Virus record (IMG/VR): IMGVR_UViG_3300010885_072628
Strand: one strand, 5' to 3'
Origin: a virus
Lineage: Duplodnaviria > Heunggongvirae > Uroviricota > Caudoviricetes
DNA: 64,000 bases
Numbering within the stretch: the first letter of the stretch is position 1; every line of letters begins with the position of its first letter. Both the position numbers and the translations under genes were made by a program. Of this stretch, positions 21,332-63,155 are shown one piece after another. The notes under the pieces were generated by a model. It worked only from the letters and a program-made list of their open reading frames with translations, made no database searches and had not been told where the DNA came from.

Positions 21332-21345
21332 TTGAAAGGAAAAAA

Positions 21346-21597
21346 ATGAAAACATTTATAGAATTCTGCAAAGACAGTAAAAAAGAGTTGCCAATACTAG
21401 AAAAGACAACTCGCTCGGGAATCATGAATTGGGCATATCCAGATGGATATATACGAAGCCATTATTCCGCTGGTTATTTTATGCCAATCGCTGCCGACGC
21501 TCTACAGAAGATGGGTGTGAAAGCTGACGAAGATGAGGTAGATCACGGCCAAATGACATACAAACATCATGAAAGAATCATCAAACAAGAAAAATAA
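21346..21597 (+). CDS. hypothetical protein
   Basis: 83-aa ORF with AAGGAAAAAAATG RBS context. Confidence 0.3.
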   Translation: MKTFIEFCKDSKKELPILEKTTRSGIMNWAYPDGYIRSHYSAGYFMPIAADALQKMGVKADEDEVDHGQMTYKHHERIIKQEK

Positions 21598-22312
21598 AAT
21601 AGCTTTAGTTTGCATAGCTAAAAACGAAGATAATTATATTAAAGAATGGATTGATTATCATAAAAAAATAGGGTTTGATGATATTTATGTTTATCAAAAT
21701 GACTGGCGATGCAGAATTGATGATTCTAATTTATTTAAAATAGAATTTGATGGTAAAGGTAAGCAAATTGAAAGTTATAATCATTTTTTAAAAAATCACG
21801 GTAAAAAATACGACTGGGCGGGATTTTTCGACATTGATGAGTTTTTAGTTTTAAAAAAACACAACGACGTTAAAGAATTTGTATCTGATTATGCAAAATA
21901 TAACGGAGTTGGAATTAATTGGGTTTTATTTGGAGATAATAACCAAAACCCCCCAGAAAAAGATTTTAGTCTTTTAAAGAGATTCACCATGAGGCAAACA
22001 AAGCCTAATCTATGGGTAAAATCTATAATCAAAATAACAAAAAACGTTTCTATGCTTGTGCATCATCCGAATTTGCCTATAGTCAACACAAATGGGAATG
22101 AATGTATTGGCAACTATAATGAAGAGCTATTGGACGATATAGCACAAATAAATCATTATTTTTGTAAAACCAAAGAAGAGTTTTTAGAGAAATGCTCAAG
22201 AGGAAGAGCAGATTCAATCACTCTTAAAAGAAAAACAAATGAATTTCCAAAACACAACTTCAACGAAATCGAAGATTTCACAGCTTTAAATTTTTTTCAC
22301 CACTCTATATAA
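21569..22312 (+). CDS. glycosyltransferase family 92-like
   Basis: KIALVCIAKNEDNYIKEWIDYHKKIGFDDIYVYQND matches the GT92 A.KNE..Y..EW.EYH...G...hYhYDN signature. Confidence 0.5.
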   Translation: MKESSNKKNKIALVCIAKNEDNYIKEWIDYHKKIGFDDIYVYQNDWRCRIDDSNLFKIEFDGKGKQIESYNHFLKNHGKKYDWAGFFDIDEFLVLKKHNDVKEFVSDYAKYNGVGINWVLFGDNNQNPPEKDFSLLKRFTMRQTKPNLWVKSIIKITKNVSMLVHHPNLPIVNTNGNECIGNYNEELLDDIAQINHYFCKTKEEFLEKCSRGRADSITLKRKTNEFPKHNFNEIEDFTALNFFHHSI

Positions 22313-23413: not shown

Positions 23414-24499
23414 ATGTATGATTATCTAATAGTAGGTGCCGGAATATACGGAAGTGTCTTTGCAGAAAGAATGAAAAGCAAAGGCAAATCTGTGCTAATA
23501 ATAGACAAAAGACCGCATGTAGCAGGTAACTGCTACACAGAGGAAGTCGATGGAATTCAAGTACATCGATACGGTTGTCATATATTTAATACCGGCAAAA
23601 AAAATGTTTGGGAATATGTCAACAAGTTCGCTTCGTTCAATAATTACCGACATACAGGAAAAGTGAATTTCGAAGGAAAGGTTTATAGCTTCCCTATAAA
23701 CTTATTGACTCTTCATCAAATCTGGGGCGTAAGTACACCAGAAGAGGCAGAAAACAAATTAAAAGAAGTTAGGATTGATATCAAAAATCCTAAAAACATG
23801 GAAGATTGGTGCTTGTCTCAGATAGGCGAGCAATTATACGAAACCTTCATAAAAGGTTATTCAACAAAACAATGGGGAACTACGCCTGATAATCTGCCAG
23901 CATCTATTGTTCAGCGAATTCCTATTCGACTAACGTATAATGATGATTATTACGAAAACGCCACTTATCAAGGAATTCCATTAGGTGGTTATACCAAAAT
24001 GATTTCCAACATTTTAGATGGAATAAAAGTAGATCTTAGTGTTGATTTTTTTGATATAAAAGAAAAATGGAAACAGTATGCGAAAAAATTGGTTTATTGC
24101 GGTCCAATAGATCGATTTTTTGATTATGAGTTTGGCGAACTAGAATACAGAAGTCTTAAATGGGAAAATAAAGTTTTAACAGGAGATTATCAAGGATGTA
24201 GTGTTGTAAATTATACCGATATGGACAATAAGTTCACAAGAGTTATAGAACACAAGCACTTTGAATTTAAAAATCAAGAAAAAACAGTAGTGAGCTGGGA
24301 GTACTCTGTGCCATGGAAAGAGACTCAAGATCCATATTATCCAATAACTAATGAAAAAAATAAAGAAAGATGCCTAAAGTACAAAAAAATAGCAGAACAA
24401 CAAAAGGATGTTCTTATTTCTGGACGTTTAGGCAAATTTCTTTACCTCGATATGGACGACACAATTGCTTTAGCTCTTAAAGAGTCAAATGAGTTTTAG
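23414..24499 (+). CDS. glf: UDP-galactopyranose mutase
   Basis: Near full-length collinearity with Glf: MYDYLIVGAGIYGSVFAE...VLIIDKRPHVAGNCYTE...IPLGGYTKMI...YRSLKWE...RVIEHKHFEF. Confidence 0.85.
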   Translation: MYDYLIVGAGIYGSVFAERMKSKGKSVLIIDKRPHVAGNCYTEEVDGIQVHRYGCHIFNTGKKNVWEYVNKFASFNNYRHTGKVNFEGKVYSFPINLLTLHQIWGVSTPEEAENKLKEVRIDIKNPKNMEDWCLSQIGEQLYETFIKGYSTKQWGTTPDNLPASIVQRIPIRLTYNDDYYENATYQGIPLGGYTKMISNILDGIKVDLSVDFFDIKEKWKQYAKKLVYCGPIDRFFDYEFGELEYRSLKWENKVLTGDYQGCSVVNYTDMDNKFTRVIEHKHFEFKNQEKTVVSWEYSVPWKETQDPYYPITNEKNKERCLKYKKIAEQQKDVLISGRLGKFLYLDMDDTIALALKESNEF

Positions 24500-33266: not shown

Positions 33267-34091
33267 ATGATTGAAGTATATTCGGAACTAACAAAAGAAA
33301 AACTGCCCGTGGAATTTATGAACTTTCCAGATAATGAGAGTTTTGTTAAATTTGACTATAACGGGGGACCTTTAAACATTGTTTGGAAATATGAAAATGA
33401 TAGCGAATTAATTAGTTTGGCATTGTTGTATGATGTTATTAGTCAGAATCGTTGTTCGATAGTTAATCTCTTTATTCCTTATTTTCCACACGCACGACAA
33501 GATAGAGAAGAAGTTAAAAGTCAACCTTTCTCTTTAAGAGTTGTATCTGAATTTGTGAACGAGTTCTTAATAGGTGATTTGTGCGTCTGCTTAGATGTTC
33601 ATTCCGATGTTCTGGAGACAACAATGGTCATGGAGTTTGAGAACATCCCAAGTTCAAATTATTCTGACAGCATCGATACAAAGTATGATTATATTATTTG
33701 TCCAGATAAAGGGGCTATGAATAGGTGTGAATCTTGGGGCGAAAAAAGAAATACGCCAGTTCTATATTGCCAAAAAAATCGTGATCCTTCAACGGGCAAA
33801 CTGAGCGATCCTATTATTCCAGATATTGATTTATCTAATAAAAGAGTTTTATTGGTAGATGATATTGGAACAGGGTTTGGTACTCATGTTATGCTGGCAA
33901 ATGTGTTCCATGGAAAGCATCAAAATCTTGTTATGGATTTATGGGTTACTCACGCATCTTTCGTCAGAGGCAAGGAAATGGTATTACGTGTTTTCAATCA
34001 TGTTTATACCACAGATAGCTTGAAGGGTGCCACCCAACAAAACTCTGACAAAATTACAGTTTTTGATTGCACGAAATACTTTTTTAACTAA
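33267..34091 (+). CDS. ribose-phosphate pyrophosphokinase (Prs) homolog. Candidate ADP-ribose pyrophosphokinase (Adps) of a NARP1-type NAD+ reconstitution pathway.
   Basis: IPYFPHARQDR (Prs IPYFGYARQDR), CLDVHSD (DLHA), VLLVDDIGTGFGT (PRPP-binding loop, divergent from DDMIDTGGT), VTHASF. Confidence 0.7.
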   Translation: MIEVYSELTKEKLPVEFMNFPDNESFVKFDYNGGPLNIVWKYENDSELISLALLYDVISQNRCSIVNLFIPYFPHARQDREEVKSQPFSLRVVSEFVNEFLIGDLCVCLDVHSDVLETTMVMEFENIPSSNYSDSIDTKYDYIICPDKGAMNRCESWGEKRNTPVLYCQKNRDPSTGKLSDPIIPDIDLSNKRVLLVDDIGTGFGTHVMLANVFHGKHQNLVMDLWVTHASFVRGKEMVLRVFNHVYTTDSLKGATQQNSDKITVFDCTKYFFN

Positions 34092-34102
34092 GGAATAACA
34101 AA

Positions 34103-35569
34103 ATGGAAGTTCTCCCAATTTTGCTTTCGGACAGCTACAAACAATTTCACTGGATGATGTATCCAAATGGTATTACACGCCTTTATAGCAATTTCACTCC
34201 TCGTAGTTTCAAACACTTAGGATGTGACAAGGCTGTATTTTTTGGTCTACAATACTATATCAAGGAGTATATTCTGGGTCAGTGGCAAAGAAACTTCTTT
34301 GATAAGCCACTAAATGAAGTAGCACAAGAATACCAAAGATTTCATAAACATTTTAGTTTTTATGATATGCCAGTAGAGCATATTACTAAGCTTCACAATC
34401 TTGGTTATCTACCAATAAAAATTAAAGCACTTCCAGAAGGTTGTCTTGTTAATGAAAAGATTCCATTTTTTACAATCACAAACACCCATGATGATTTTGC
34501 ATGGTTAGTTAATTTTCTTGAAACTCAAATTAGCACAAGCATTTGGGACTGTTGTGTTGTTGCTACTATTGCAAGACAATATCGAACTCTATTAAATAAT
34601 CATGCCAATAAGACTTGTGATAATAAAGATTTTGTTCAATGGCAGGGACATGATTTTAGTCAACGAGGAAGAAGTAGTACAGAAAGCACTTTTAATCAAG
34701 CGGGTCATTTGCTAAGTTTTACCGGCACGGATACTATTCCTAGTGTTTTTATGCTAGAGAAATATTATAATGCTGATATTACCAAAGAATTAGTAGGAAG
34801 CAGCGTTCCAGCGAGCGAACACAGTATTCAAACAAGTTATGGTAAAGAAAATGAAATTGATGGATTTATAAGAATTCTGGACAGATTCCCAAGCGGTATT
34901 GTCAGTATTGTTAGTGACAGTTTTGATCTCTGGGAAGTCTGTACAACTTTTGTAACCAAACTTAAAGATAAAATTTTATCTAGAGATGGAAAGCTAGTCA
35001 TTAGGCCAGATAGTGGTAATCCTGTTGACATTGTTTGTGGTGCTATAGAACAAGAATGGCAAAACGAACAAGCAACACTTCCACAAGAAAAAGGTGTTGT
35101 TGAACTTCTTTGGGATGTTTTTGGAGGAACAATTAACGAGAAAGGATATAAAGTTCTTGATCCTCATATTGGAGTAATCTACGGAGATAGTATTTCTCTT
35201 GAAAGAGCAGACGCTATTTGCAAAAGACTAGAGCGAAAAGGATTTGCTAGCAGCAATATTGTGTTTGGTATTGGCAGCTACACCTATAACCACAATACCA
35301 GAGATAGTTTGGGAATTGCTGTTAAAAGTACATACTGTGAGGTTGATGGAGAAAAGAGAAATATTTTTAAAGATCCCGTAACGGATGATGGAGTTAAGAA
35401 GTCTGCACGGGGGTTATTGAAAGTAGTTAAAGAAAATAATGAATATGTTTTGTATGATCAGGTTAGTGATCTCGAAGAAACTCAGGGTGAATTAACAACA
35501 GTTTTTGAAAATGGAAAACTTTTGGTAGATCATAAATTGAGCGATATTAGAGAAAGGTTGTGGAAATAA
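34103..35569 (+). CDS. nadV: nicotinamide phosphoribosyltransferase family protein (NadV/NAMPT; Namat-like)
   Basis: 488 aa, collinear with NAMPT: FFGLQYYIKEY, LPIKIKALPEG, GHDFSQRG, FTGTDT, SVPASEHS, IVSDSFD, IRPDSGNP, IYGDSI, NIFKDPV. Confidence 0.85.
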   Translation: MEVLPILLSDSYKQFHWMMYPNGITRLYSNFTPRSFKHLGCDKAVFFGLQYYIKEYILGQWQRNFFDKPLNEVAQEYQRFHKHFSFYDMPVEHITKLHNLGYLPIKIKALPEGCLVNEKIPFFTITNTHDDFAWLVNFLETQISTSIWDCCVVATIARQYRTLLNNHANKTCDNKDFVQWQGHDFSQRGRSSTESTFNQAGHLLSFTGTDTIPSVFMLEKYYNADITKELVGSSVPASEHSIQTSYGKENEIDGFIRILDRFPSGIVSIVSDSFDLWEVCTTFVTKLKDKILSRDGKLVIRPDSGNPVDIVCGAIEQEWQNEQATLPQEKGVVELLWDVFGGTINEKGYKVLDPHIGVIYGDSISLERADAICKRLERKGFASSNIVFGIGSYTYNHNTRDSLGIAVKSTYCEVDGEKRNIFKDPVTDDGVKKSARGLLKVVKENNEYVLYDQVSDLEETQGELTTVFENGKLLVDHKLSDIRERLWK

Positions 35570-36323: not shown

Positions 36324-36517
36324 AAAATAAAAATACTGAGAATATGATTCAAAGTGTAATTTTAACTTTTGATGATGGGCAAGAGGCGATATTTGTTGGT
36401 AAGGCTGTTTGTTTTCAAGGGGAAACAAGAAAAATAAGAGATATTGCATTTTCTCCTCCAAGCGATATGCCAGAAGATTGTAGTTGGGGAGATCTTTCCA
36501 ATACTCGGAAAACATAA
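36320..36517 (+). CDS. hypothetical small protein
   Basis: 65-aa ORF. Confidence 0.3.
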   Translation: MKNKNTENMIQSVILTFDDGQEAIFVGKAVCFQGETRKIRDIAFSPPSDMPEDCSWGDLSNTRKT

Positions 36518-36524
36518 AAATAAA

Positions 36525-37016
36525 ATGAAAACTACAAACAAATACGTATTCTTCTGGAATGGAATTTACTCTCAATGGCATAAAGCAAATATGACTATTG
36601 ACGGTATCACTTACAATTCATGCGAACAATATATGATGCACCAAAAAGCCTTAACTTTTGGTGATACGGAAACTGCTAAAATTATCATGGCAGAAACTAA
36701 TCCAAGTGAGCAAAAGAAATACGGCCGTATGATCAGAAACTTTGACAAAAGTGTTTGGGATAAAGTTTGTTTAAGCATTGTAATTAAAGGAAACTACTTT
36801 AAGTTTTCTCAAAATGAAAATCTTAAAACTTCTTTATTACTTACAGGTAATAGAATCTTGGTTGAGGCATCACCACTTGATAACATTTGGGGTATTGGAA
36901 TGGCTGAAGACGACGTTAACATTGAACACCCTATGCGTTGGAAAGGTCTTAATCTTTTAGGCCAAGCAATTACAATCGTTAAACAAGAACTTATACGAGA
37001 AATTACAAATACATAA
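36525..37016 (+). CDS. NADAR (YbiA/DUF1768) domain protein. Candidate reverser of guanine ADP-ribosylation (anti-DarT1-type).
   Basis: VFFWNGIYSQWH...IDGITYNSCEQYMMHQKALTFGD...YGRMIRNF...VWD...LLLTGNRILVEASPLDNIWGIG matches the NADAR signature. Start at ATG 36525 within the 36-bp repeat. Confidence 0.8.
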   Translation: MKTTNKYVFFWNGIYSQWHKANMTIDGITYNSCEQYMMHQKALTFGDTETAKIIMAETNPSEQKKYGRMIRNFDKSVWDKVCLSIVIKGNYFKFSQNENLKTSLLLTGNRILVEASPLDNIWGIGMAEDDVNIEHPMRWKGLNLLGQAITIVKQELIREITNT

Positions 37017-37062
37017 GCACGATGGTAATACTACCATATACTCGGAAAAACATAAAAATAAA

Positions 37063-37251
37063 ATGAAAACTACTTACTCTGAAGTTGTCAGACGCTATGC
37101 GGTTGTTTGTATTCATCCAGATAATCCTAATGATGTACAAGTTATTGAATATTTCAGCGATATTGATGAAGCAAATGTGTTAGTGTCACAATTAAACAGT
37201 AAAAAAATTGCTGATGGAGAGTTTTGTGTAATGCAGTACGACCTAGGATGA
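37063..37251 (+). CDS. hypothetical small protein
   Basis: Starts within the second copy of the 36-bp repeat (MKTTYSE). Confidence 0.3.
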   Translation: MKTTYSEVVRRYAVVCIHPDNPNDVQVIEYFSDIDEANVLVSQLNSKKIADGEFCVMQYDLG

Positions 37252-37294
37252 TTCCAAACACTATGGAACAAACTGTAATTCTGACGAAACTCTT

Positions 37295-37804
37295 TTGAGA
37301 AAGACTGCGAAAATGAAAACAAAAATTACTAAAGAACTTGTAGAATCACTTTCCAGTGATACTATCGCTAAAAAAGAATACGATAAAATTATTAAAAGTA
37401 TTGAAAAGAAAGTCGAAGAAATATGGCTTTTTATTTGCAAAGAAGCTTGGATGGACTGCGAATGGTATGCATTCAGGAATGACCTTGAACTGGGTCATGG
37501 CGATGGATCGACTGGCGGCTGTTTCGATCCAAGAGCAGATAAACAATTTATTGAAATTTTAGGCGAAAAGAAAGACGTAGATTATTGCCCATACAACGAA
37601 GGATTTCCCACCAAGCTGCTCTGGACAGAAAACTGGAAGGAAATAGTTATCAAAGAAATAGAAAAAGCAGAGAAAAAACAAATAATTGAGATAGAAAAAG
37701 CAGAGAAAAAACAAACAACCGATAGTTCTAAAAAAGAAATCATCCAAAAAAAAATTAAATCCAAACTAACAAAGGAAGAATTGAAACACATTCAATTTAA
37801 ATGA
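37295..37804 (+). CDS. hypothetical protein
   Basis: 169-aa ORF. The minus-strand ORFs here were rejected. Confidence 0.35.
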   Translation: MRKTAKMKTKITKELVESLSSDTIAKKEYDKIIKSIEKKVEEIWLFICKEAWMDCEWYAFRNDLELGHGDGSTGGCFDPRADKQFIEILGEKKDVDYCPYNEGFPTKLLWTENWKEIVIKEIEKAEKKQIIEIEKAEKKQTTDSSKKEIIQKKIKSKLTKEELKHIQFK

Positions 37805-38136
37805 AAACTCTATCTACAACATTTGTAAAAAAAATCAAAAAAGTCTTGAAGGACGAAAACATCAATGATATAGAGACCGATGTTCTTGTAGCAAAAGATG
37901 TAAATCACTTCAAGTATCTTTATTTGCATTTCAAGTCTAGGGAATTCTCAGTTCAAGATGACAATGTTTATGTTTCTGCAATTTTGTTGCTAAATAAAAA
38001 CAAAATCAAATATCACATATGTTTAGAAAGTGATGATAAATGCTTGGTGTTTGTTCCTTACAATCAAACAATTGGGTGTTTAGTGGAAGAAGAACCGATT
38101 TGGGTAGATTATCAAGGTGGAAATCATGAAAATTGA
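37801..38136 (+). CDS. hypothetical protein
   Basis: 111-aa ORF. Confidence 0.3.
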   Translation: MKTLSTTFVKKIKKVLKDENINDIETDVLVAKDVNHFKYLYLHFKSREFSVQDDNVYVSAILLLNKNKIKYHICLESDDKCLVFVPYNQTIGCLVEEEPIWVDYQGGNHEN

Positions 38137-38758
38137 ATATGCGGAAAACCCTTTAGCATCTAAAATTTATTTAGATGATAGTGAAAAGAAACTATTGTTC
38201 TGGAAGTATAAATGGGATCTATTAGGCGATGAAATATACGGTTTCTATTACTGGATGAAAGAACCAGAAAAACAAAAAGCCGGATTTAAAGAACACAATA
38301 ACGTTCAAGGCTTAGAAGCTTATGAAAAACTAGAACAAAGTATGCTTTCTGATCCTTTGAATACTGTCTATGAAAAATTAGATAAAATTTCAGAAAATAT
38401 GTCTGACATGCAATATGATGAGTCTGCTATAAAAGACTTCATAGAAGCTTTGCAAGAAAGTCATCATGGAGATTGTATCAGCCAGTGTTGCTCATGTTTA
38501 AAATGTTATGTAGAAGATCAATTGGACATGGATTACGATGTGCCAAATTTTCGTGAACAATCTGGACACACAATTAATGGAGCCTTTTTCAAGCCAGATC
38601 AAACAATCGAACAAGCTATTGATTATCTAAAAAACAAAGATTTTAATACTGCTGAAATTTTGGCATATCAAAAAGAAGTCGTCGATAGATGGAAACAAGA
38701 AAATTCATCAGCTATTGAGTATTTGGAATATTACAAAAAAGAAATTTTAAAAAGGTGA
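38117..38758 (+). CDS. hypothetical protein
   Basis: 213-aa ORF. CISQCCSCLKC cluster. Confidence 0.35.
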   Translation: MEIMKIEYAENPLASKIYLDDSEKKLLFWKYKWDLLGDEIYGFYYWMKEPEKQKAGFKEHNNVQGLEAYEKLEQSMLSDPLNTVYEKLDKISENMSDMQYDESAIKDFIEALQESHHGDCISQCCSCLKCYVEDQLDMDYDVPNFREQSGHTINGAFFKPDQTIEQAIDYLKNKDFNTAEILAYQKEVVDRWKQENSSAIEYLEYYKKEILKR

Positions 38759-38762
38759 ACCT

Positions 38763-39176
38763 ATGTGCCAAATATGCGAATGTGAACCAGAATATTTTGG
38801 AGAAATTCTTGAAGACTGGTTTCTTTATCGAGCCACGAAAGAGAGCAATGAATGTGGTGTTTATCGTATTGAGGTTGGAGAATGGTTCTTAGCCAGACTT
38901 AATAGTGGGCAATCTTATTGTAGCTGGACCGAAGAGAGAGAACGAGAATGCATCAAAGATTTTATTGGCAATGAAACATACGCCGATGATCTTATGTGGT
39001 GCAATCCTCAAGTTGGATACTGGATCACCTCGGCGGCTATAAAAAGGGGATATGATCCCGAAGAAAACAATTTCAACAATTGGTTTTTGGCTCTTTTAAT
39101 CGAACACAGAAAAACTCATCAAACTGCCATAGAAAAGAAAAATCATATACGCCTCAAACTGTTGCATCATGGGTAA
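38763..39176 (+). CDS. hypothetical protein
   Basis: 137-aa ORF. Confidence 0.35.
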   Translation: MCQICECEPEYFGEILEDWFLYRATKESNECGVYRIEVGEWFLARLNSGQSYCSWTEERERECIKDFIGNETYADDLMWCNPQVGYWITSAAIKRGYDPEENNFNNWFLALLIEHRKTHQTAIEKKNHIRLKLLHHG

Positions 39177-39240
39177 AAACCCCATACACAAAACATTACA
39201 CATTCTCAAAAACGGAACTATCAAAAAACAGGATTAGTTT

Positions 39241-39720
39241 ATGTTGATACACACAAAAGGTAATATCATCGATCTAGCAGAGCAAGGTCTTTTTGATGTT
39301 ATAGTTCATGGTTGTAATTGTCAAAACACTATGGGTTCTGGAATTGCCAAGGAAATTAGAGAAAGATACCCACAGGCTTACGAATCAGACACTCAGATAT
39401 CTAAATCTAAAAACGCAAATCAAAAATTAGGCACATACTCTGAGGCGAATGTAGGCAAATTTGTTATCATTAATGCTTATACACAACTAAATTATTTACC
39501 TCGTGGTCAAGACCATTTTGATTATGAAGGCTTTGATAAAATTTTAAACATTTTGCTAAATCAATATGGTAACGCTTCTATTGGTTTTCCTTATATAGGA
39601 ATGGGATTAGCGGGTGGAGATTCAAACAAGATAATTGAATCTCTTGAGTCTTTTGCTAAAAAAGTTTCTAAGGTAGGCGGCAAGGTTACACTAGTAGAAT
39701 TTGACAAAGGAACTCGCTAA
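39241..39720 (+). CDS. macro domain protein, TARG1/DarG-like subfamily. Candidate ADP-ribose removal from DNA or protein.
   Basis: HTKGNIIDL...DVIVHGCNCQNTMGSGIAKEI...PYIGMGLAGGD parallels TARG1 YVKGDLF...HCISEDCRMGAGIA...PRIGCGLD. Confidence 0.6.
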   Translation: MLIHTKGNIIDLAEQGLFDVIVHGCNCQNTMGSGIAKEIRERYPQAYESDTQISKSKNANQKLGTYSEANVGKFVIINAYTQLNYLPRGQDHFDYEGFDKILNILLNQYGNASIGFPYIGMGLAGGDSNKIIESLESFAKKVSKVGGKVTLVEFDKGTR

Positions 39721-40133
39721 TGGAACAGCTTCTGATTCATCTTTTCGGGGACTACTGGCTTCAGAGTGACTGGATGGCTCTTAATAAAACCAAGCAGACG
39801 CTTCCATGCTCTGTGCATTGTTTTATTTACACTTTGCCTTTTTTGCTTTTTACCGACAACATATTGGCATTATTTTTGATCTTTGCAACTCATTTTGTCG
39901 AGGATCGCTGGTCTCTCGTAAAATATTTTATCTGGTTTAAGAATCATGCCAATCCAACGTTGACATATCCATCATTTGACAAATGTAGCGTCACTGGATA
40001 TTATGACACATGGAACCCAGACAATAAAGACGGTCGCCCAAACTGGATAACAACTTGGCTGTACATAATCACCGACAATTCATACCACTTGCTGTGTAAT
40101 TTCCTAATCCTTAACTATTTTGAAAGAATCTAA
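39720..40133 (+). CDS. hypothetical protein (DUF3307-like?)
   Basis: HLFGDYWLQSDWMA motif. Confidence 0.3.
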   Translation: MEQLLIHLFGDYWLQSDWMALNKTKQTLPCSVHCFIYTLPFLLFTDNILALFLIFATHFVEDRWSLVKYFIWFKNHANPTLTYPSFDKCSVTGYYDTWNPDNKDGRPNWITTWLYIITDNSYHLLCNFLILNYFERI

Positions 40134-43429: not shown

Positions 43430-43749
43430 ACAATATTCATCGTTTCAAGAACGAAATTCTAGCAGAGATTGATGCCATAATCCCCGCCCCCTCCACATAT
43501 ATCCAAGAGGGAAAAGTCGCACAAAGGAGGCTATTCAGTTTGATTGATGCCTATTTGTGTGACGAGTTTTCTAGTCGAGAATTTTTAATCGATTTGAAAA
43601 AATGTCTTGGCGTTTCGGACAATTCGAGAGCCGATTATGCCAAGGAAGTCAAAGTACGTGGCAAAGAGGTGATCATAAAGTTCGACACGGCTCAAGATGC
43701 CAGAATTTTTGGTGATGACATTATAAATTTAGTGTGGACAAATGATTGA
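43396..43749 (+). CDS. hypothetical protein
   Basis: 117-aa ORF. Confidence 0.3.
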   Translation: MLGQRNGVCFVNNIHRFKNEILAEIDAIIPAPSTYIQEGKVAQRRLFSLIDAYLCDEFSSREFLIDLKKCLGVSDNSRADYAKEVKVRGKEVIIKFDTAQDARIFGDDIINLVWTND

Positions 43750-44275
43750 AAAGGAGATAAAATTGAACAAGCCAATAGTTTATATTGCCTCGCCATACAC
43801 AAAAGGCGACGTAAGCATTAACGTGCATTTTCAGTGTAAGATTTTTGACGAACTGATGGATGACGGAATAGTGGTGCCTGTGGTTCCTCTGTGGAGCCAC
43901 TTTCAGCACACAATATTTCCTCGACAATACAAAGATTGGATAGCATACGATTTGGCTCTTCTATGCCGATATGATGCTTGTCTGAGGCTAGATGTCATCA
44001 ATGAAAAACTAAACTACCATCAACATGATAGCTCTGGTGCAGATGGCGAGGTTGAAGAATTCAAGAGGTTAGGCAAGCCTGTCTTTTTCAGCAAGGCAGA
44101 ATTGTATGAATGGGTCAAGGCACCGGCAGAAGAAGAGGATAACTCACCGGCAGAAGAAGAGGATTGGTTGGGGCATTTGCATGGTCCTGTTGGACCGACA
44201 AGCGGAAAACGAATCCGCAGCAAGAAGTTTAAAAATCAAGGCAGTACTACCACTAAAAAAGCAACCATAGAATGA
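43742..44275 (+). CDS. nucleoside 2-deoxyribosyltransferase-fold (DUF1937-like) protein
   Basis: PIVYIASPYTKGD N-terminal motif typical of the NDT-like fold. Confidence 0.3.
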   Translation: MIEKEIKLNKPIVYIASPYTKGDVSINVHFQCKIFDELMDDGIVVPVVPLWSHFQHTIFPRQYKDWIAYDLALLCRYDACLRLDVINEKLNYHQHDSSGADGEVEEFKRLGKPVFFSKAELYEWVKAPAEEEDNSPAEEEDWLGHLHGPVGPTSGKRIRSKKFKNQGSTTTKKATIE

Positions 44276-45111: not shown

Positions 45112-45624
45112 ATGAACGAACAAAAACTAGTAGAACTAGCAAGAGAAATTGAAGATACCGCAAATTCTTATTATAATGAATCAAATCCAGATGTTCCAAG
45201 AATACTGGATGAGATAGTAATGAGTTCTCGTGCAATGATTGATATGCTGCAAGAAAAACTTCATTTTAGTTTGCGGGACGCTACCGGTAGGCTGACGCAA
45301 AAAGAAGCAGAAGAATTTGAAAAAATTATTTCTACTACGAAACCTTACGAATTTCCTAAAGATTATGTAGCACCAAAAGAAATTTCTTCCAAAGAGTTCC
45401 TTGAACGAATAAAAGAAGAGCTACCAACAATGGGTAACTTCACACCTTATTCTTATTACAACGAATCCATGGATGAAATACAGGTTTATTTTAAAGATGA
45501 AAGCTGTTACACCAAGCCCGTAAATGATAAATTAGAATTATATTTATCATATGATAATGATGTGATTGGAGTGAAGGTTCTTGGGGTTAAAAAATTAATT
45601 CAAGATAAAGGAAAATTCAAATGA
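45112..45624 (+). CDS. hypothetical protein
   Basis: 170-aa ORF. Confidence 0.35.
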   Translation: MNEQKLVELAREIEDTANSYYNESNPDVPRILDEIVMSSRAMIDMLQEKLHFSLRDATGRLTQKEAEEFEKIISTTKPYEFPKDYVAPKEISSKEFLERIKEELPTMGNFTPYSYYNESMDEIQVYFKDESCYTKPVNDKLELYLSYDNDVIGVKVLGVKKLIQDKGKFK

Positions 45625-46013
45625 CAACGCTCGTAAATTTCACAAAAAAGTATATTACACAAAAAATTAGTTCAATTAGTTTAGATCATTTTGATGGACA
45701 AAGTTTCGAGAGTATTATTTCTCAACTAAATGAAAAATCTAAGAAGGCAGAGTCTGAATTCCCTTCGATGAAGCCACCGACAATGAAACATATTTATTTA
45801 GAGAAAATATATGATAGGCATAATGAAACTTATTATTTCGATGTAATGATTGAAAGACTAGAAAACGATAAAGAGTATGATAATAGAATTAAAGAAGAAA
45901 AAAAAGAACAAGAAAGAAAAGCAAAAATGGCGGCTAGACAAGAAACAAAAAAAGAAAAGTTTGAAGAAAAAGAGTACCGAAGACTAAAAAAGAAATACGA
46001 GAAAAAAGCATGA
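45621..46013 (+). CDS. cassette-family protein (type A N-domain) with a conserved K/E-rich C-terminal tail ...RLKKKYEKKA
   Basis: ERLENDKEYDNRIKEEKK...EYRRLKKKYEKKA. 3' junction ctaaaaaagaaatacgagaaaaaagcATGA. Confidence 0.4.
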   Translation: MTTLVNFTKKYITQKISSISLDHFDGQSFESIISQLNEKSKKAESEFPSMKPPTMKHIYLEKIYDRHNETYYFDVMIERLENDKEYDNRIKEEKKEQERKAKMAARQETKKEKFEEKEYRRLKKKYEKKA

Positions 46014-46425
46014 TATGCAACAAATGCAATAAGGGAGAAATTCAAACATCAACAGCAGGTGATATTGATTTTTTTGGTTGCAACAAATGCGATAATGGCT
46101 GGATCGTGGAAAATGGAAAGAAATATATTAGACAAGGGCTTGATGCTTTTTCTTTTAATGAGTCATCTGATTTAGGCACATTTACTTTAGATGATGCAAT
46201 TAATTATCTGGAAAAAATAAAATCTCTTCACCCAGAAGCGAATCAATTTTATTTAAGAGTAGAAAAAAATCATTATGACGATCTGAATTGTTTTGTTGTA
46301 GAGATGGAAAGGTTAGAAACAGACAAAGAGTACAGTAAGAGAATCAAATTGGAAGAAAAAAACAAGAAGCTATTGAAAGAAAAGAACTCGCAAGATTGAA
46401 AAAGAAATACGAGAAAAAATCATGA
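46010..46425 (+). CDS. cassette-family protein (zinc-ribbon N-domain, type A tail). Needs a -1 frameshift at A_AAA_AAC (46357-46363) to reach the conserved tail. Zero-frame product ends at 46399.
   Basis: Frame 0: ...ETDKEYSKRIKLEEKNKKLLKEKNSQD*. Frame -1 continues ...KKQEAIERKELARLKKKYEKKS*, ending in the same ATGA junction (46422-46425) as its paralogs. Confidence 0.4.
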
Positions 46426-47377: not shown

Positions 47378-47860
47378 ATGATAATCAAGCCCCCACAAAA
47401 CATAGCCCTCAGAGACAGCGAATATTCAATTTTTTTGGCTGGTTCAATCGAAATGGGTTCAGCAATTGATTGGCAAAAAGATCTTGGAGAACATCTATCC
47501 GGCAAAGGCTATACAGTGTACAATCCAAGACGAGATGATTGGGATAGCACTTGGGAGCAAAAATTTGAAAGCCCTCAATTTTACCAACAAGTGAATTGGG
47601 AATTAAACGCTCTGGATCAAGCGAATTACATCGTGATGTATTTTGATCCTAAAACTAAAAGCCCAATAAGTCTTTTGGAATTAGGACTTTATGCAAATAC
47701 TAACAAATTATATGTGATTTGTCCCGAAGGCTTTTGGCGAAAAGGAAATGTGGATATTGTTTGCAACAAATATGATATCCCACTTTTCCCCGACATTGAA
47801 GAATTCAAGAACAAATGGGAAAACTTTGCCATTAAAAAGAGAATGTGGGGAACAAGATGA
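47378..47860 (+). CDS. nucleoside 2-deoxyribosyltransferase-like protein
   Basis: SIFLAGSIEMG...W (N-terminal Rossmann-like motif). SPISLLELGLYANTNKLYVICPEG with the conserved Glu, as in NDT/DNPH1 enzymes. Confidence 0.5.
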   Translation: MIIKPPQNIALRDSEYSIFLAGSIEMGSAIDWQKDLGEHLSGKGYTVYNPRRDDWDSTWEQKFESPQFYQQVNWELNALDQANYIVMYFDPKTKSPISLLELGLYANTNKLYVICPEGFWRKGNVDIVCNKYDIPLFPDIEEFKNKWENFAIKKRMWGTR

Positions 47861-48039
47861 AAGTTAAAAGCTTTAAAGTTTTAAGCCTCAACGAAACATT
47901 GTCTAGAGAAGAATTAGACAAACTGTGGAAGGAAGAATTGTGGGTTGCAAACAGACCAAGAACATGGTATGAATGGTTCTGCTGGACTTTTGACGGTAAA
48001 TATAATATTTTTAATTGCAGCGGAGAAAATCATGGCTAA
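47845..48039 (+). CDS. hypothetical small protein
   Basis: 64-aa ORF. Confidence 0.25.
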   Translation: MGNKMKVKSFKVLSLNETLSREELDKLWKEELWVANRPRTWYEWFCWTFDGKYNIFNCSGENHG

Positions 48040-48391
48040 AAAAGCAAAAGCAAAAGAGACGAAACTTCCCAAAAATAGACAATACATAATTTTGAAACAT
48101 GATGGCTACGGTGTTTTAGAACCTTTTACTTCTCTAGGCATTTCTGGAGCTTGTATTTATGATGGAAAGGACATCACATCTATAGAGGACGCCATTTGTG
48201 GGGCGTATGAGGAAATCGGCGGAGAAATTGAAGAACTTGAAGAATGGGATGGATCCGACATCGTAATTTTATCTGTGGAAAACGAACTCGAATATATCAA
48301 GTCTACTATTAAAAAATATCATTCAGATGTCGAGACAAAAGAAAAAAGAGAGTTGGCACGACTAAAAAAGAAATATGAAGGTAAATCATGA
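48032..48391 (+). CDS. cassette-family protein (type B N-domain, MAKKAKAKETKLPK...) with the ELARLKKKYEGKS tail
   Basis: ATG at 48032 after GGAG. Tandem paralog of 48388..48753. Confidence 0.4.
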   Translation: MAKKAKAKETKLPKNRQYIILKHDGYGVLEPFTSLGISGACIYDGKDITSIEDAICGAYEEIGGEIEELEEWDGSDIVILSVENELEYIKSTIKKYHSDVETKEKRELARLKKKYEGKS

Positions 48392-48753
48392 ATAAAAAAG
48401 CAAAAGCAAAAGAGACGAAACTTCCTAAAGATGGAAGATACATAGTCCTAAGAGATGACGGGGGTGGTTTGAGCCTTTTCGATTATTCGTCAGGGGCAAT
48501 TTACATCTATGATGGAACGGAAGAATTAGAGGACGCAATTTGTGGTGCTTACGAGGAAATCTATGGGGAAATGAGTGAAGAATTTGATGATGACGATATA
48601 TACAGCGAGAATTACCTAGATCAAATCTGCATTTTTTCTTTGGAAGATAAACCCGAATACATCAAGTCTACTCTTAAAAAATATCATTCAGATATCGAGA
48701 CAAAAGAAAAAACAGAGTTGGCACGACTAAAAAAGAAATATGAGAAAAATTAA
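48388..48753 (+). CDS. cassette-family protein (type B). Tandem duplicate of 48032..48391.
   Basis: MNKKAKAKETKLPKDGRY...ICGAYEEIYGE...YIKSTLKKYHSDIETKEKTELARLKKKYEKN. Confidence 0.4.
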   Translation: MNKKAKAKETKLPKDGRYIVLRDDGGGLSLFDYSSGAIYIYDGTEELEDAICGAYEEIYGEMSEEFDDDDIYSENYLDQICIFSLEDKPEYIKSTLKKYHSDIETKEKTELARLKKKYEKN

Positions 48754-56588: not shown

Positions 56589-56774
56589 ATGCTATTGCCT
56601 TTTATTTTTTATTTTTCACAATCTTTAGAAATCCCTGAGTATATTCCTAAAAATAAATATGCTCAACATGTCCCGTACGAATTTCTAGGAAGTGTGCAAG
56701 AAAAAAATAAAGGCATAATGGAATACAATCCGATAGAGAAGTTGATTGAAAAGCAGAACGAAAAAATAAAATGA
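56589..56774 (+). CDS. hypothetical small protein (doubtful)
   Basis: 61-aa ORF. Confidence 0.2.
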   Translation: MLLPFIFYFSQSLEIPEYIPKNKYAQHVPYEFLGSVQEKNKGIMEYNPIEKLIEKQNEKIK

Positions 56775-62049: not shown

Positions 62050-62197
62050 ATACTAAAAAAGACATAAAATCTATTTCGAATCCGTTAGAACATATTCTCG
62101 AAGTAGCAGACAGCTACTTTAAAGATAAGTTTCTAATTCTAAATGCTAGAGACGAGTTAAAAAGATTGAAGCTCATGCTGAAGAATTGCAAAGAAAA

Positions 62198-62914: not shown

Positions 62915-63155
62915 AATTGTTTTGACATTCGGAACTAACTTTTCTTTGTGCTTTAAAAGTTTTAATACGCCTGAATTAGCAAGAGATTTTTTGCTAAATT
63001 TCAGTAGATATAACGAAACATATGTCAGGTCGCAACTTCACAACATAGAAACAGACGAGTGGTTTGATTTCGATAAGTATGGTAACATAGAACCTCAAAC
63101 CCACATGAAATTGCCCATGTTCGCCTTTTTTAATTCTTTTTTCAAAAAATCATGA
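62907..63155 (+). CDS. hypothetical small protein
   Basis: 82-aa ORF. Confidence 0.3.
   Translation: MYEIVLTFGTNFSLCFKSFNTPELARDFLLNFSRYNETYVRSQLHNIETDEWFDFDKYGNIEPQTHMKLPMFAFFNSFFKKS

What the first reader, a model, noticed from the sequence alone, without database searches (positions are those of the whole stretch)
36525..39720. NADAR domain protein and a TARG1/DarG-like macro domain in the same operon: candidate dual eraser of DNA ADP-ribosylation
NADAR proteins reverse guanine ADP-ribosylation of the DarT1 type. TARG1/DarG-like macro domains reverse thymine ADP-ribosylation of the DarT2 type. Finding both, 3 kb downstream of the NAD+ reconstitution pair, suggests a compact module dedicated to undoing ADP-ribose-based host immunity. 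Together with the two NDT-fold genes this makes an ADP-ribose/NAD-centred counter-defence island spanning about 33.2-47.9 kb.
Basis: partly seen in the sequence, partly recalled or inferred. Interest (0 to 1): 0.8.

Follow-up and report, generated by a model that had tools for sequence, protein, structure and literature searches.

The report
Phage ADP-ribose clean-up enzymes beside NAD+ rebuilding genes
A large environmental phage carries two intact enzymes that strip ADP-ribose off other molecules (a NADAR and a macrodomain) next to its NAD+-rebuilding genes. Both belong to known phage counter-defence families, and related phages hold all of these genes in one tight cassette, which points to "erase and recycle" rather than DNA repair alone.

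Summary
Both domain calls are correct. ORF 36525-37016 is a stand-alone, YbiA-type NADAR with all catalytic residues. ORF 39241-39720 is a confident macrodomain whose fold matches DarG, TARG1 and Poa1p equally well.

The macro is not DarG-type. Gln82 and Ala124 replace the catalytic Lys and Asp. It belongs to the phage Tk.4/Adpp/Poa1p-like clade. That clade holds Vibrio phage Gary Adpp, an ADPR-1''-phosphate phosphatase of the NARP1-AP pathway, and T4 Tk.4 (AdfM), which is needed against DarTG2.

Comparative context is the strongest evidence. In 28 viral loci with a close NADAR homologue, a macro gene (24), Namat (24), Adps (19) and an NDT-fold gene (21) lie within 10 kb on the same strand. 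They are often contiguous as Adps-macro-NADAR-Namat-NDT. The window macro's nearest relatives sit inside NatV-macro-NadV (NARP2-like) operons.

Best reading: these are accessory enzymes that free ADP-ribose from defence-made derivatives so that Adps and Namat can rebuild NAD+. Reversal of DarT damage remains plausible, and T4 already pairs AdfN with AdfM. The parts are known. A NADAR embedded in NARP1 is uncharacterised.

The parts
36525..37016 (+). Stand-alone YbiA-type NADAR N-glycosidase (163 aa)
   Evidence: Pfam NADAR E 6.5e-50. TIGR02464 145 bits against a cut-off of 73.7. AF2 pLDDT 95.6. Foldseek 8bau TM 0.83 and YbiA TM 0.81. E34, K41, K64, R68 and E114 are invariant in 32 homologues and map onto PnNADAR E43, the Lys seven residues downstream of it, K75, R79 and E125. 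About 90% nt identity to T4-like viral contigs, limited to the gene itself.
39241..39720 (+). Macrodomain of the phage Tk.4/Adpp/Poa1p-like clade (159 aa)
   Evidence: Pfam Macro E 3.6e-6. phrog_335 'phosphatase' 9e-45. AF2 pLDDT 88.4. Foldseek top hits are DarG, Poa1p and TARG1. Invariant motifs VHGCNCxNTMGSGIA, NAYTQ and GFPYIGMGLAGG. Gln82 and Ala124 stand where DarG/TARG1 have Lys and Asp. 30% identity to T4 Tk.4 (E 3e-17) and 28% to Gary Adpp (E 3e-11).
33267..34091 (+). Prs-like protein, candidate Adps (ADP-ribose pyrophosphorylase) of NARP1
   Evidence: Pfam Pribosyltran_N. About 31% identical homologues in 1332 phage records, annotated as ribose-phosphate pyrophosphokinase. 25-29% identity to the Pribosyltran gene at the head of the cassette in related loci.
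34103..35569 (+). NAMPT-family protein, candidate Namat of NARP1
   Evidence: Pfam NAMPT_N + NAPRTase. Starts 12 nt after the Adps-like gene. 43-58% identity to the NAMPT-like gene of the NADAR cassettes, against 32-37% to the NadV of NatV-macro-NadV loci. The window has no NatV/NMNAT homologue.
47378..47860 (+). NDT-fold protein (Nuc_deoxyri_tr2), conserved fifth member of the cassette in relatives
   Evidence: Pfam PF15891 E 6e-38. 47-66% identical homologue within 10 kb of NADAR in 21 of 28 related loci, directly after Namat in L001-L003 and L009-L011.
37063..39176 (+). Five intervening ORFs (62, 169, 111, 213 and 137 aa) of unknown function; not part of the conserved cassette
   Evidence: No Pfam, NCBIfam or PHROG family. 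Found elsewhere only on L005, a fragment of the same phage.
39720..40133 (+). DUF3307 membrane-like protein whose start overlaps the macro stop; link to the module unproven
   Evidence: Pfam DUF3307 E 5.7e-6. phrog_6676 and phrog_2470. Absent from all related macro and NADAR loci except L005.
43742..44275 (+).
   Evidence: Only phrog_355 at 6e-7, with no Pfam hit. 0 of 28 related NADAR loci carry a homologue.

Best explanation
The two genes are accessory 'erase-and-recycle' enzymes of the phage's NAD+ reconstitution pathway NARP1 (Adps-like 33267-34091 and Namat-like 34103-35569). Host defences turn NAD+ into nicotinamide plus ADP-ribose that is blocked or attached at its C1'' position. Each enzyme removes one kind of block and releases free ADP-ribose. 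Adps then pyrophosphorylates it and Namat joins it to nicotinamide to remake NAD+. The macrodomain most likely removes the 1''-phosphate of ADPR-1''P, the product of RES-type (aRES) NADases, as Adpp does in the NARP1-AP pathway. The NADAR hydrolyses N-glycosidic ADP-ribose-base bonds. The only demonstrated substrate class is guanine-N2-ADP-ribose on DNA or RNA, as written by DarT1-type transferases, so it can both repair phage DNA and return ADP-ribose to the pool.

Shown here: folds, intact active-site residues, clade membership and conserved gene linkage. Inferred: the substrates, the coupling to NARP1 and expression as one unit.
For: (1) An 87%-identical NADAR lies in T4-like phage contigs in a contiguous same-strand block: Pribosyltran(Adps)-macro-NADAR-NAPRTase(Namat)-Nuc_deoxyri_tr2.
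(2) In 28 viral loci with NADAR of at least 56% identity, the partners within 10 kb are macro 24, Namat 24, Adps 19 and NDT 21, and all four occur in 16, always on the same strand. In 9 loci with more distant NADARs the count is 0 for every partner.
(3) The window macro's own subfamily (at least 50% identity, 31 loci) has a NAMPT gene within 1.5 kb downstream in 24 of 29 loci. Among loci L043-L076, 27 also carry an upstream NMNAT-Nudix (NatV-like) gene. Its nearest relative outside that subfamily (L074, 40% identity) is arranged Adps-macro-Namat.
(4) The macro clusters with all NARP1-associated macros of Osterman et al., including the biochemically proven Gary Adpp. It shares their H-x-C-N-C, [YH]-x-Q and GLAGG motifs and the Poa1p H23 and S30 equivalents (H23, T30).
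(5) Published precedents exist for feeder enzymes inserted in NARP1 operons: Adpp (10.64898/2026.01.28.702374) and RyDEP (10.64898/2026.05.28.727677).
(6) The NADAR keeps every catalytic and ADPr-binding residue. All NADAR subtypes tested so far, YbiA included, hydrolyse guanosine-ADPr in vitro (PMC11125620).
(7) Iyer et al. 2022 noted phage NADARs next to NadV/NadM and predicted soluble ADPr substrates.
Against: No experiment exists on these proteins. In the window the genes are dispersed: ten ORFs separate Namat from the macro, so the macro fails the 'within two genes' operational criterion used to define NARP1-AP. The window macro is only 28% identical to Gary Adpp, and it comes from the NARP2-linked subfamily, where an ADPR-1''P phosphatase has no obvious role. 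T4 Tk.4, from the same Lys-less clade, is genetically required against DarTG2, so a DNA-eraser role cannot be excluded from sequence. No role for a NADAR in NAD+ reconstitution has been demonstrated; the only paper in the library that names both NADAR and NARP1 does so in passing. Whether the 488-aa protein is Namat rather than a plain NAMPT was judged from architecture and similarity only.
Confidence: 0.5

Rival explanations
1. One reading: a dual eraser of DNA ADP-ribosylation that works independently of NAD+ rebuilding. The NADAR removes DarT1-type guanine-ADPr and the macro removes DarT2-type thymine-ADPr from replicating phage DNA, as T4 does with AdfN (gp30.3) and AdfM (Tk.4).
For: T4 tk.4 knock-out is sensitised to DarTG2 and 30.3 is required on DarTG1 hosts (PMC11825919). 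The window macro is 30% identical to Tk.4 (E 3e-17) and shares all its motifs, including Gln in place of the DarG Lys. The NADAR is 34-39% identical to Vequintavirinae NADARs such as that of phage 4MG; that subfamily's Bas60 protein neutralises DarT1. Foldseek ranks DarG and TARG1 among the top macro hits. Asn26, the equivalent of the PhiKZ AdfM N23 active-site Asn, is invariant.
Against: DarG K80 / TARG1 K84 and TARG1 D125 are replaced by Gln82 and Ala124. The NCBIfam DarG score is 28.9 against a cut-off of 250. The DNA-deribosylating activity of T4 Tk.4 is inferred, not measured. The close relatives of this macro are always beside NAD+ salvage genes and never beside a NADAR. YbiA-type and T4 NADARs failed to rescue cells from DarT1 in one study. 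The NADAR lacks the N-terminal extension and catalytic Asp of DarT1-linked NADARs and is 20% identical to T4 AdfN.
Confidence: 0.25
2. Signal quenchers: one or both enzymes degrade soluble ADP-ribose-derived immune signals (cADPR isomers, His-ADPR and the like) of Thoeris-type systems. Any feeding of NARP1 would be a side benefit.
For: Iyer et al. [quoted passage not shown] RyDEP shows that a glycosidase inside a NARP1 operon does exactly this for 2'/3'cADPR. The same-strand cassette with an NDT/DrHyd-fold protein fits nucleotide-signal processing.
Against: No NADAR or Tk.4-like macro has been shown to cleave a Thoeris signal. The only measured activities in these clades are guanine-ADPr hydrolysis and ADPR-1''P dephosphorylation.
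Confidence: 0.12
3. RNA-repair or general housekeeping. The macro clears ADPR-1''P (or O-acetyl-ADPR) left by KptA/Tpt1- or sirtuin-type RNA-end processing, and the NADAR acts on related by-products or on the phage's own ADP-ribosyltransferase products.
For: Poa1p, the closest characterised cellular homologue, does this job in yeast tRNA splicing. In Vequintavirinae phage 4MG the homologous 'phosphatase' lies about 1.2 kb from an RNA ligase. The window has an RlaP RNA-repair nucleotidyltransferase at 61162-62049. Iyer et al. link Macro and NADAR to RNA repair.
Against: No KptA/Tpt1, 2H, RNA ligase or ART was found among the window ORFs scanned. The conserved partners in relatives are NAD+ reconstitution genes, not RNA-repair genes.
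Confidence: 0.08
4. Unrelated neighbours. The NADAR is a YbiA-type N-glycosidase for riboflavin-pathway intermediates, the macro is an independent moron gene, and their proximity in this window has no functional meaning.
For: TIGR02464 (riboflavin intermediates N-glycosidase) scores 145 bits against a cut-off of 73.7. The NADAR gene is a 490-bp patch of about 90% nt identity with non-alignable flanks, so it moves as a single gene. Five unrelated ORFs separate the two genes. In cultured phages WH1 and phiKT1024 the NADAR has no NAD+ neighbours.
Against: Linkage of this NADAR clade with macro, Adps, Namat and NDT in 16-24 of 28 loci, against 0 of 9 for distant NADARs, is far beyond chance. No rib genes were seen. 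YbiA itself hydrolyses guanosine-ADPr in vitro.
Confidence: 0.05

Closest known systems
NARP1-AP (Adps-Adpp-Namat; Vibrio phage Gary; Osterman et al., bioRxiv 10.64898/2026.01.28.702374)
   Same: A Prs-like + NAMPT-like pair with a Poa1p-like macrodomain of the same clade, sharing the H-x-C-N-C, x-Q and GLAGG motifs. In relatives of the window phage the macro sits directly after Adps, as it does in Gary.
   Different: In the window the macro is 3.7 kb and ten ORFs downstream of Namat, and it is only 28% identical to Gary Adpp. The relatives' cassette also contains a NADAR and an NDT-fold gene, which that paper does not mention (0 occurrences of 'NADAR').
T4 AdfN (gp30.3, NADAR, anti-DarTG1) plus AdfM (Tk.4, macro, anti-DarTG2)
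   Same: One phage carries both a NADAR and a Lys-less Tk.4-type macro. The window macro is 30% identical to Tk.4 (E 3e-17) with the same motifs.
   Different: The window NADAR is YbiA-type (Glu114), whereas T4-type phage NADARs carry His at that position. It is 20% identical to gp30.3 (E 0.19). In T4 the two genes are about 67 kb apart and T4 has no NARP1. Tk.4 biochemistry has not been measured.
AdfN of Vequintavirinae (Bas60-62), orphan phage NADAR that neutralises DarT1 (PMC11825919)
   Same: A stand-alone phage NADAR that is neither DarT-linked nor T4-type. The window protein is 34-39% identical over about 90% of its length to Vequintavirinae NADARs such as that of phage 4MG. Vequintavirinae also carry NARP1 (Bas63) and a Tk.4-like 'phosphatase'.
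   Different: The Bas60 sequence itself was not compared. In those phages the genes are scattered rather than held in one cassette.
DarG / TARG1 macrodomains and PhiKZ AdfM (gp104)
   Same: The same structural class (Foldseek E 1e-7 to 1e-6, TM about 0.7), the same G-x-G phosphate loop and the same conserved Asn.
   Different: The catalytic Lys of the 'PTK' motif is Gln82 and TARG1 Asp125 is Ala124. There is no C-terminal DarT-binding domain. The proteins form a separate branch in the NJ tree. The NCBIfam DarG score is far below its cut-off.
E. coli YbiA / Phytophthora nicotianae NADAR (PDB 2b3w, 8bau)
   Same: A core NADAR fold without extensions and the YbiA-subfamily Glu (E114 equivalent to E125), with TM 0.81-0.83.
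   Different: It is phage-borne, and within its clade it is embedded in NAD+ reconstitution cassettes rather than in a LexA operon or as a eukaryotic stand-alone gene.
RyDEP in NARP1 operons (bioRxiv 10.64898/2026.05.28.727677) and NARP2 (NadV + NatV, KVP40)
   Same: RyDEP is a precedent for a glycosidase inserted between NARP1 genes that makes ADP-ribose for Adps/Namat. The window macro's nearest relatives lie between NatV-like and NadV genes, which is NARP2 architecture.
   Different: The folds differ (RyR versus NADAR or macro). The window itself has no NatV. A macro within NARP2-type operons is not described in the papers read.

Membership tests
NADAR superfamily (PF08719) | Profile match above the curated cut-off, and the NADAR fold | tested here: met
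   170 bits against a cut-off of 35.1. AF2 pLDDT 95.6. Foldseek 8bau TM 0.83 and 2b3w TM 0.81.
NADAR superfamily (PF08719) | Catalytic Glu and Lys (E. coli C7 E88/K95, T4 E36/K43, PnNADAR E43 and the Lys seven residues on) and the pyrophosphate-binding Lys and Arg (Pn K75/R79) | tested here: met
   E34, K41, K64 and R68 align to these positions (with a consistent +2 SEQRES offset) and are invariant in 32 homologues.
YbiA subfamily of NADAR | Glu at the position of PnNADAR E125 (Asp in the BC4488 and DarT1-linked types, His in T4-type phage NADARs), with a core fold and no extension | tested here: met
   E114 is invariant. The protein is 163 aa. TIGR02464 scores 145 bits against a cut-off of 73.7.
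DarG1 (DarT1-associated NADAR antitoxin) | Adjacent DarT1 gene, N-terminal fold extension (about 229-234 aa in total) and a catalytic Asp (D171) in place of the YbiA Glu | tested here: not met
   No ART or DarT among the neighbouring ORFs scanned. The protein is 163 aa with no extension and has Glu114, not Asp. No DarT1-linked NADAR structure appears among the Foldseek hits.
AdfN (phage anti-DarT1 NADAR; a functional class) | Restores phage growth on DarTG1 hosts or removes guanine-ADPr from DNA | not testable with these tools
   Homology only: 20% identity to AdfN-T4 and 34-39% to Vequintavirinae NADARs.
Macro domain (PF01661) | Profile match above the cut-off, the macro fold and the G-x-G ADPr-binding loops | tested here: met
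   27.4 bits against a cut-off of 22. AF2 pLDDT 88.4. 168 PDB macro hits at E <= 0.001. G32-S-G34 and G120-x-G122 are invariant.
DarG / TARG1-type DNA-thymine ADP-ribosylglycohydrolase | Catalytic Lys (DarG K80 / TARG1 K84, the 'PTK' motif) | tested here: not met
   Invariant Gln82 in 'NAYTQ' aligns to the Lys of M. tuberculosis DarG, PhiKZ AdfM and TARG1. The TARG1 sequence was supplied from memory.
DarG / TARG1-type DNA-thymine ADP-ribosylglycohydrolase | Whole-protein match to the DarG equivalog, the C-terminal DarT-binding domain and an adjacent DarT | tested here: not met
   NF048014 scores 28.9 bits against a cut-off of 250. The protein is 159 aa and macro-only. There is no DarT nearby.
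Adpp / Poa1p-like ADPR-1''-phosphate phosphatase clade (phage Tk.4-like macros) | Sequence membership: the H-x-C-N-C...MGxG(I/V)A, [YH]-x-Q and G-L-[AG]-G-G motifs, and the Poa1p H23 and S30 equivalents | tested here: met
   H23, N26, T30, Q82 and G122-L-A-G-G126. The protein clusters with Gary Adpp and all sampled NARP1-associated macros, apart from DarG, AdfM-PhiKZ and TARG1. phrog_335 at 9e-45.
Adpp / Poa1p-like ADPR-1''-phosphate phosphatase clade (phage Tk.4-like macros) | Operational criterion of Osterman et al.: the macro gene lies within two genes of an Adps-Namat pair | tested here: not met
   Ten ORFs (3.7 kb) lie between Namat and the macro in the window. The criterion is met by the paralogous macro in related cassettes and by L074, L083 and L086.
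Adpp / Poa1p-like ADPR-1''-phosphate phosphatase clade (phage Tk.4-like macros) | ADPR-1''P to ADPR activity | not testable with these tools
   Measured only for Gary Adpp and yeast Poa1p.
NARP1 (Adps + Namat) | Adjacent Prs-like and NAMPT-like genes, with no NMNAT | tested here: met
   33267-34091 and 34103-35569 are 12 nt apart. The window has no NatV-like hit. The Adps-like protein has homologues in 1332 phage records.
NARP1 (Adps + Namat) | ADPR-PP synthesis and ADPR-PP-specific 'selectivity clamp' residues in Namat | not tested
   The clamp residues described in PMC12774641 were not mapped onto the window protein.

The most novel reading that the evidence does not exclude
In this clade of environmental (T4-like and jumbo) phages the NADAR, and perhaps the NDT-fold protein, is a dedicated third 'feeder' enzyme of an extended NARP1 pathway (Adps-macro-NADAR-Namat-NDT). 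It would convert an as yet unidentified N-glycosidically linked ADP-ribose product of a host NAD+-consuming defence into free ADP-ribose for NAD+ resynthesis. That would imply a defence chemistry not yet described, analogous to how Adpp revealed aRES and RyDEP was tied to Thoeris signals.
Probability: 0.25. Interest if true: 0.75.

Novelty: new variant of a known kind. Interest (0 to 1): 0.45.

Why it matters
NAD+ and ADP-ribose chemistry is now seen as a main front in phage-bacterium conflict. Two accessory enzymes of NARP1 have each exposed a matching host defence: Adpp matched aRES, and RyDEP matched Thoeris signals.

The conserved placement of a NADAR (and an NDT-fold gene) between Adps/macro and Namat points to further branches of this network and gives a concrete cassette to test. 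It also raises a question about the Lys-less Tk.4-type macro clade. Its members have been reported once as an ADPR-1''P phosphatase and once as an anti-DarTG2 factor, so they may be bifunctional or may split into specialised subclades.

For the window itself the result is more modest. It holds known counter-defence parts in a dispersed arrangement.

Tried and rejected
- **No close DNA relative.** blastn against 50,697 phage records found only short matches of 67-75% identity inside the NADAR gene.
- **DarG equivalog and DS32_2 anti-phage NADAR models.** Both scored far below their cut-offs: 28.9 against 250, and 34.4 against 240.
- **A retracted inference.** I first concluded that the missing DarG/TARG1 Lys excludes an anti-DarT2 role. 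I withdrew this after finding that T4 Tk.4, which has the same Gln, is genetically required against DarTG2.
- **NADAR context in cultured phages.** Bacillus phage WH1 and Vibrio phage phiKT1024 have no NAD+ genes nearby, so the linkage is specific to the clade.
- **Phage 4MG macro context.** It lies next to small ORFs and an RNA ligase, not NARP1.
- **Bacterial genome scan with the macro profile.** Only 7 hits in 185,579 species genomes, six of them in MAGs and one on a 776-bp contig of an isolate. The family is essentially viral and no host could be inferred.
- **Cluster member names.** These gave only generic labels.
- **Promoter/terminator scan.** Counts equalled shuffled expectation, so it cannot settle operon structure.
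- **The five intervening ORFs and DUF3307.** No informative family, and no conservation outside the same phage.
- **Poa1p structure paper.** It is not in the library, so the roles of H23, S30 and F152 rest on PDB entry titles only.
- **ICP1 AdfB.** It is a 77-aa DarT binder, not a macro, and is not relevant here.
- **Not run.** The Namat selectivity-clamp mapping, and a direct comparison with the Bas60 and Bas32 AdfN sequences.

Full report
**1. What is in the sequence**

The window is AT-rich (about 35% G+C) with nearly all genes on the + strand. It has no close DNA relative among 50,697 phage records.

ORF 36525-37016 (163 aa) matches Pfam NADAR at E 6.5e-50 and NCBIfam TIGR02464 at 145 bits, against a cut-off of 73.7. 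ORF 39241-39720 (159 aa) matches Pfam Macro at 27.4 bits (cut-off 22) and phrog_335 'phosphatase' at 9e-45.

Five ORFs with no detectable family lie between them (37063-39176). A DUF3307 gene overlaps the macro stop codon.

Upstream are a Prs-like gene (33267-34091) and a NAMPT-like gene (34103-35569), 12 nt apart, which is the NARP1 architecture. The window has no NMNAT/NatV homologue.

The 'same operon' claim is not testable: the promoter/terminator scan equals shuffled expectation and finds no + strand terminator between the two genes.

**2. The NADAR**

The AF2 model is very confident, at pLDDT 95.6. Its only significant PDB matches are Phytophthora nicotianae NADAR 8bau (TM 0.83) and E. 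coli YbiA (TM 0.81).

The HMMER alignment to 8bau uses a constant +2 SEQRES offset that reproduces three residues named by Schuller et al. 2023. On that basis:

- E34 is equivalent to E43.
- K41 is equivalent to the Lys seven residues downstream of E43 (E. coli C7 K95, T4 K43).
- K64 and R68 are equivalent to the pyrophosphate binders K75 and R79.
- E114 is equivalent to E125.

All five are invariant in 32 homologues. Glu at the last position defines the YbiA subfamily. DarT1-linked NADARs use Asp and have an N-terminal extension (229-234 aa in total), and T4-type phage NADARs have His.

The window protein is therefore a core, stand-alone, YbiA-type NADAR. It is not DarG1-like and not an orthologue of T4 AdfN (20% identity, E 0.19). 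It is 34-39% identical to the NADARs of Vequintavirinae phages such as 4MG. That subfamily's Bas60 NADAR neutralises DarT1 (PMC11825919), although I did not compare the Bas60 protein itself.

Every NADAR subtype tested so far hydrolyses guanosine-ADPr in vitro, but protection in vivo depends on the subtype (PMC11125620).

**3. The macrodomain**

The AF2 model (pLDDT 88.4) matches T. aquaticus and M. tuberculosis DarG, yeast Poa1p and human TARG1 about equally (Foldseek E 1e-7 to 1e-6, TM about 0.7).

The family is large (1,147 hits at about 55-72% identity) and very conserved. Its invariant motifs are VHGCNCxNTMGSGIA, NAYTQ, PRxxDHFxY and GFPYIGMGLAGG.

Alignments to M. tuberculosis DarG (PDB 5m3i), PhiKZ AdfM (sequence taken from PMC13309987) and TARG1 (sequence from memory) place invariant Gln82 on the catalytic Lys of the 'PTK' motif. 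They place Ala124 on TARG1 Asp125. The NCBIfam DarG model scores 28.9 bits against a cut-off of 250.

The residues mutated in the Poa1p crystal structures (H23, S30) are matched by invariant H23 and T30, while Poa1p F152 corresponds to Ala124.

tblastn finds homologues in 2,933 phage records, among them the tk.4 gene of T4-like phages. T4 Tk.4 is annotated 'phosphatase; contains A1pp phosphatase motif'.

I took Vibrio phage Gary Adpp and other NARP1-associated macro sequences from Table S1 of Osterman et al.. A BLASTP comparison, a motif table and an unbootstrapped NJ tree put several groups into one clade:

- the window macro
- its relatives
- the macros of the related NADAR cassettes
- the 4MG 'phosphatase'
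- T4 Tk.4
- Gary Adpp
- all sampled NARP1 macros

This clade has H-x-C-N-C, [YH]-x-Q and G-L-[AG]-G-G. It is separate from M. tuberculosis DarG, PhiKZ AdfM and TARG1, which carry PTK.

**4. What that clade is known to do**

Two experimental reports exist, and they point in different directions.

- **Gary Adpp.** It converts ADPR-1''P, the product of the RES-domain defence aRES, into ADPR, so that NARP1 can rebuild NAD+. This is the 'NARP1-AP' pathway. A macro of this kind accompanies 15% of NARP1 operons (bioRxiv 10.64898/2026.01.28.702374).
- **T4 tk.4.** A transposon screen found it to be the single T4 gene required on a DarTG2 host. The authors named it AdfM and inferred, without biochemistry, that it removes ADP-ribose from DNA (bioRxiv 10.1101/2025.11.20.689424).

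T4 Tk.4 has the same Gln in place of the DarG Lys. My first inference, 'no Lys, therefore no anti-DarT2 role', had to be withdrawn. Sequence alone cannot choose between the two functions, and the clade may be bifunctional.

**5. Comparative context, the most informative evidence**

An 87%-identical NADAR (P0126) lies on T4-like contigs, with gp2, Portal_T4 and a gp44-type clamp loader close by. There it sits in a contiguous same-strand block:

| Position | Gene in the relative | Match to the window |
|---|---|---|
| 1 | Pribosyltran (300 aa) | 26% identical to the window Adps-like protein |
| 2 | 213-aa protein with no recorded Pfam hit | 33% identical (E 1e-18) to the window macro |
| 3 | NADAR | 87% identical |
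| 4 | NAPRTase (505 aa) | 45% identical to the window Namat-like protein |
| 5 | Nuc_deoxyri_tr2 | 54% identical to window 47381-47800 |

The pattern holds across IMG/VR loci. Counts are loci with a homologue within 10 kb of the NADAR, always on the same strand.

| NADAR identity to window | Loci | Macro | Namat | Adps | NDT | All four |
|---|---|---|---|---|---|---|
| at least 56% | 28 | 24 | 24 | 19 | 21 | 16 |
| below 56% | 9 | 0 | 0 | 0 | 0 | 0 |

Some loci are near-duplicates, so roughly 18 distinct arrangements remain.

The window macro belongs to a different subfamily from the cassette macro. In 31 loci with at least 50% identity, a NAMPT gene follows within 1.5 kb in 24 of the 29 loci that have enough downstream sequence. 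None of the 31 has a NADAR or a detectable Adps. Among loci L043-L076, 27 carry an upstream NMNAT-Nudix (NatV-like) gene. This is NARP2 architecture with a macro inserted.

The nearest relative outside that subfamily (L074, 40% identity) is arranged Adps-macro-Namat, and L083 and L086 are Adps-Namat-macro. The macro family is essentially viral, with only 7 hits in 185,579 species genomes: six in MAGs and one on a 776-bp contig of an isolate.

Both macro subfamilies are therefore habitual partners of phage NAD+ reconstitution genes. The window phage has the NARP2-type macro in a genome whose relatives keep the NARP1-type macro beside NADAR. This looks like displacement by a paralogue doing the same job.

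**6. Mechanism proposed**

*Shown:* intact folds and active sites, clade membership and conserved linkage.

*Inferred:* host NAD+-consuming defences yield nicotinamide plus ADP-ribose that is phosphorylated (aRES) or N-linked to a base (DarT1-type transferases, possibly others). The macro removes the 1''-phosphate, and the NADAR hydrolyses the N-glycosidic bond. The released ADP-ribose is pyrophosphorylated by Adps and joined to nicotinamide by Namat.

Published precedents for such 'feeder' enzymes inside NARP1 operons are Adpp and the cADPR glycosidase RyDEP. Iyer et al. 2022 had already noted several related points:

- NADAR and Macro co-occur in DNA viruses more often than chance predicts.
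- Some viruses fuse the two domains.
- Phage NADARs can neighbour NadV/NadM.

I give this 'erase-and-recycle' reading 0.5. The pure dual DNA-eraser model, as in T4 with AdfN + AdfM, gets 0.25. The two are not exclusive, since removal of DarT-type adducts also releases ADP-ribose. Lesser rivals are signal quenching (0.12), RNA-repair housekeeping (0.08) and coincidence or a riboflavin-type YbiA function (0.05).

**7. Comparison with known systems and novelty**

Each part is a new member of a known family. The idea that a phage carries both a NADAR and a macro against ADP-ribose-based immunity is already established for T4. Macro-extended NARP1 is also published.

What the papers I could search do not describe is a NADAR, together with an NDT-fold protein, as a conserved internal member of NARP1 cassettes:

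- The aRES paper never mentions NADAR.
- The NARP1 preprint mentions neither NADAR nor macro.
- Only one paper in the library names both NADAR and NARP1, and does so in passing.

I also found no description of a macro inside NatV-NadV operons. I therefore rate the finding a new variant of a known kind, of moderate interest (0.45).

**8. Caveats**

- No experiment bears on these particular proteins.
- The NJ tree has no support values and its branches are long.
- The TARG1 sequence came from memory.
- Adps and Namat identity rests on architecture and on 25-58% similarity, not on the selectivity-clamp residues.
- The loci are metagenomic, and some are redundant.
- The rest of the phage genome was not examined for ARTs or RNA-repair genes.

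Noticed in passing
window 36506-36995 vs L001-L011, L030: The NADAR gene is a patch of about 490 bp at 87-91% nucleotide identity to T4-like viral contigs. The flanks do not align, and the neighbouring Namat reaches only 66-72% over short stretches. This suggests a recent single-gene exchange of NADAR between phage lineages.
   Followed up: partly
L043-L076 (e.g. L045 8952-11940; L057 8928-11936): The window macro's closest relatives sit between a CTP_transf_like+NUDIX gene (NatV/NadM-Nudix-like) and a NAMPT (NadV) gene in about 27 viral loci. This is a NARP2-type operon with an embedded macro, which I did not find described in the papers read.
   Followed up: partly
L001 5360-6001 and homologues in L006-L034: The cassette-type macro carries an N-terminal Cys-rich extension of about 45 aa (CWYCEHGPCNGECKIDPC) that is absent from the window macro, T4 Tk.4 and Gary Adpp. 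It may be a zinc-binding module.
   Followed up: no
window 47378-47860; L001 8063-8533: A Nuc_deoxyri_tr2 (NDT/DrHyd-fold) gene is a conserved fifth member of the Adps-macro-NADAR-Namat cassette (21 of 28 loci), directly after Namat in several. Its role in NAD+/ADPR chemistry is unknown.
   Followed up: partly
window 45621-46399 and 47945-48753: There are two pairs of adjacent paralogous ORFs. 47945-48391 and 48388-48753 share KAKAKETKLPK...ICGAYEEI...EYIKST.KKYHSD.ETKEK.ELARLKKKYE. 45621-46013 and 46010-46399 share an ERLE.DKEY..RIK motif. Three of the four end in RLKKKYE. This comes from reading the translations.
   Followed up: no
window 2614-3384, 20459-22312, 23414-24499, 56771-57559, 62186-62914: The window has an unusually rich set of sugar-modifying genes for a phage: several GT2-family and GT92/GT17-like glycosyltransferases and a UDP-galactopyranose mutase.
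   Followed up: no
window 61162-62049 and 63152-63757: An RlaP-type RNA-repair nucleotidyltransferase and a calcineurin-like phosphoesterase lie near the window end. They may belong to an RNA-repair or nucleotide-processing module that could also generate or consume ADPR derivatives.
   Followed up: no
window 15021-18878: A 1285-aa ORF has no Pfam match at E <= 0.001.
   Followed up: no
T4 NC_000866 60922-61389 (tk.4) vs PhiKZ gp104: Two non-orthologous macrodomains have both been named AdfM. PhiKZ gp104 is DarG-like with the PTK Lys. T4 Tk.4 belongs to the Lys-less Poa1p/Adpp-like clade. The anti-DarTG2 mechanism of the T4 protein may therefore differ from that of DarG.
   Followed up: partly
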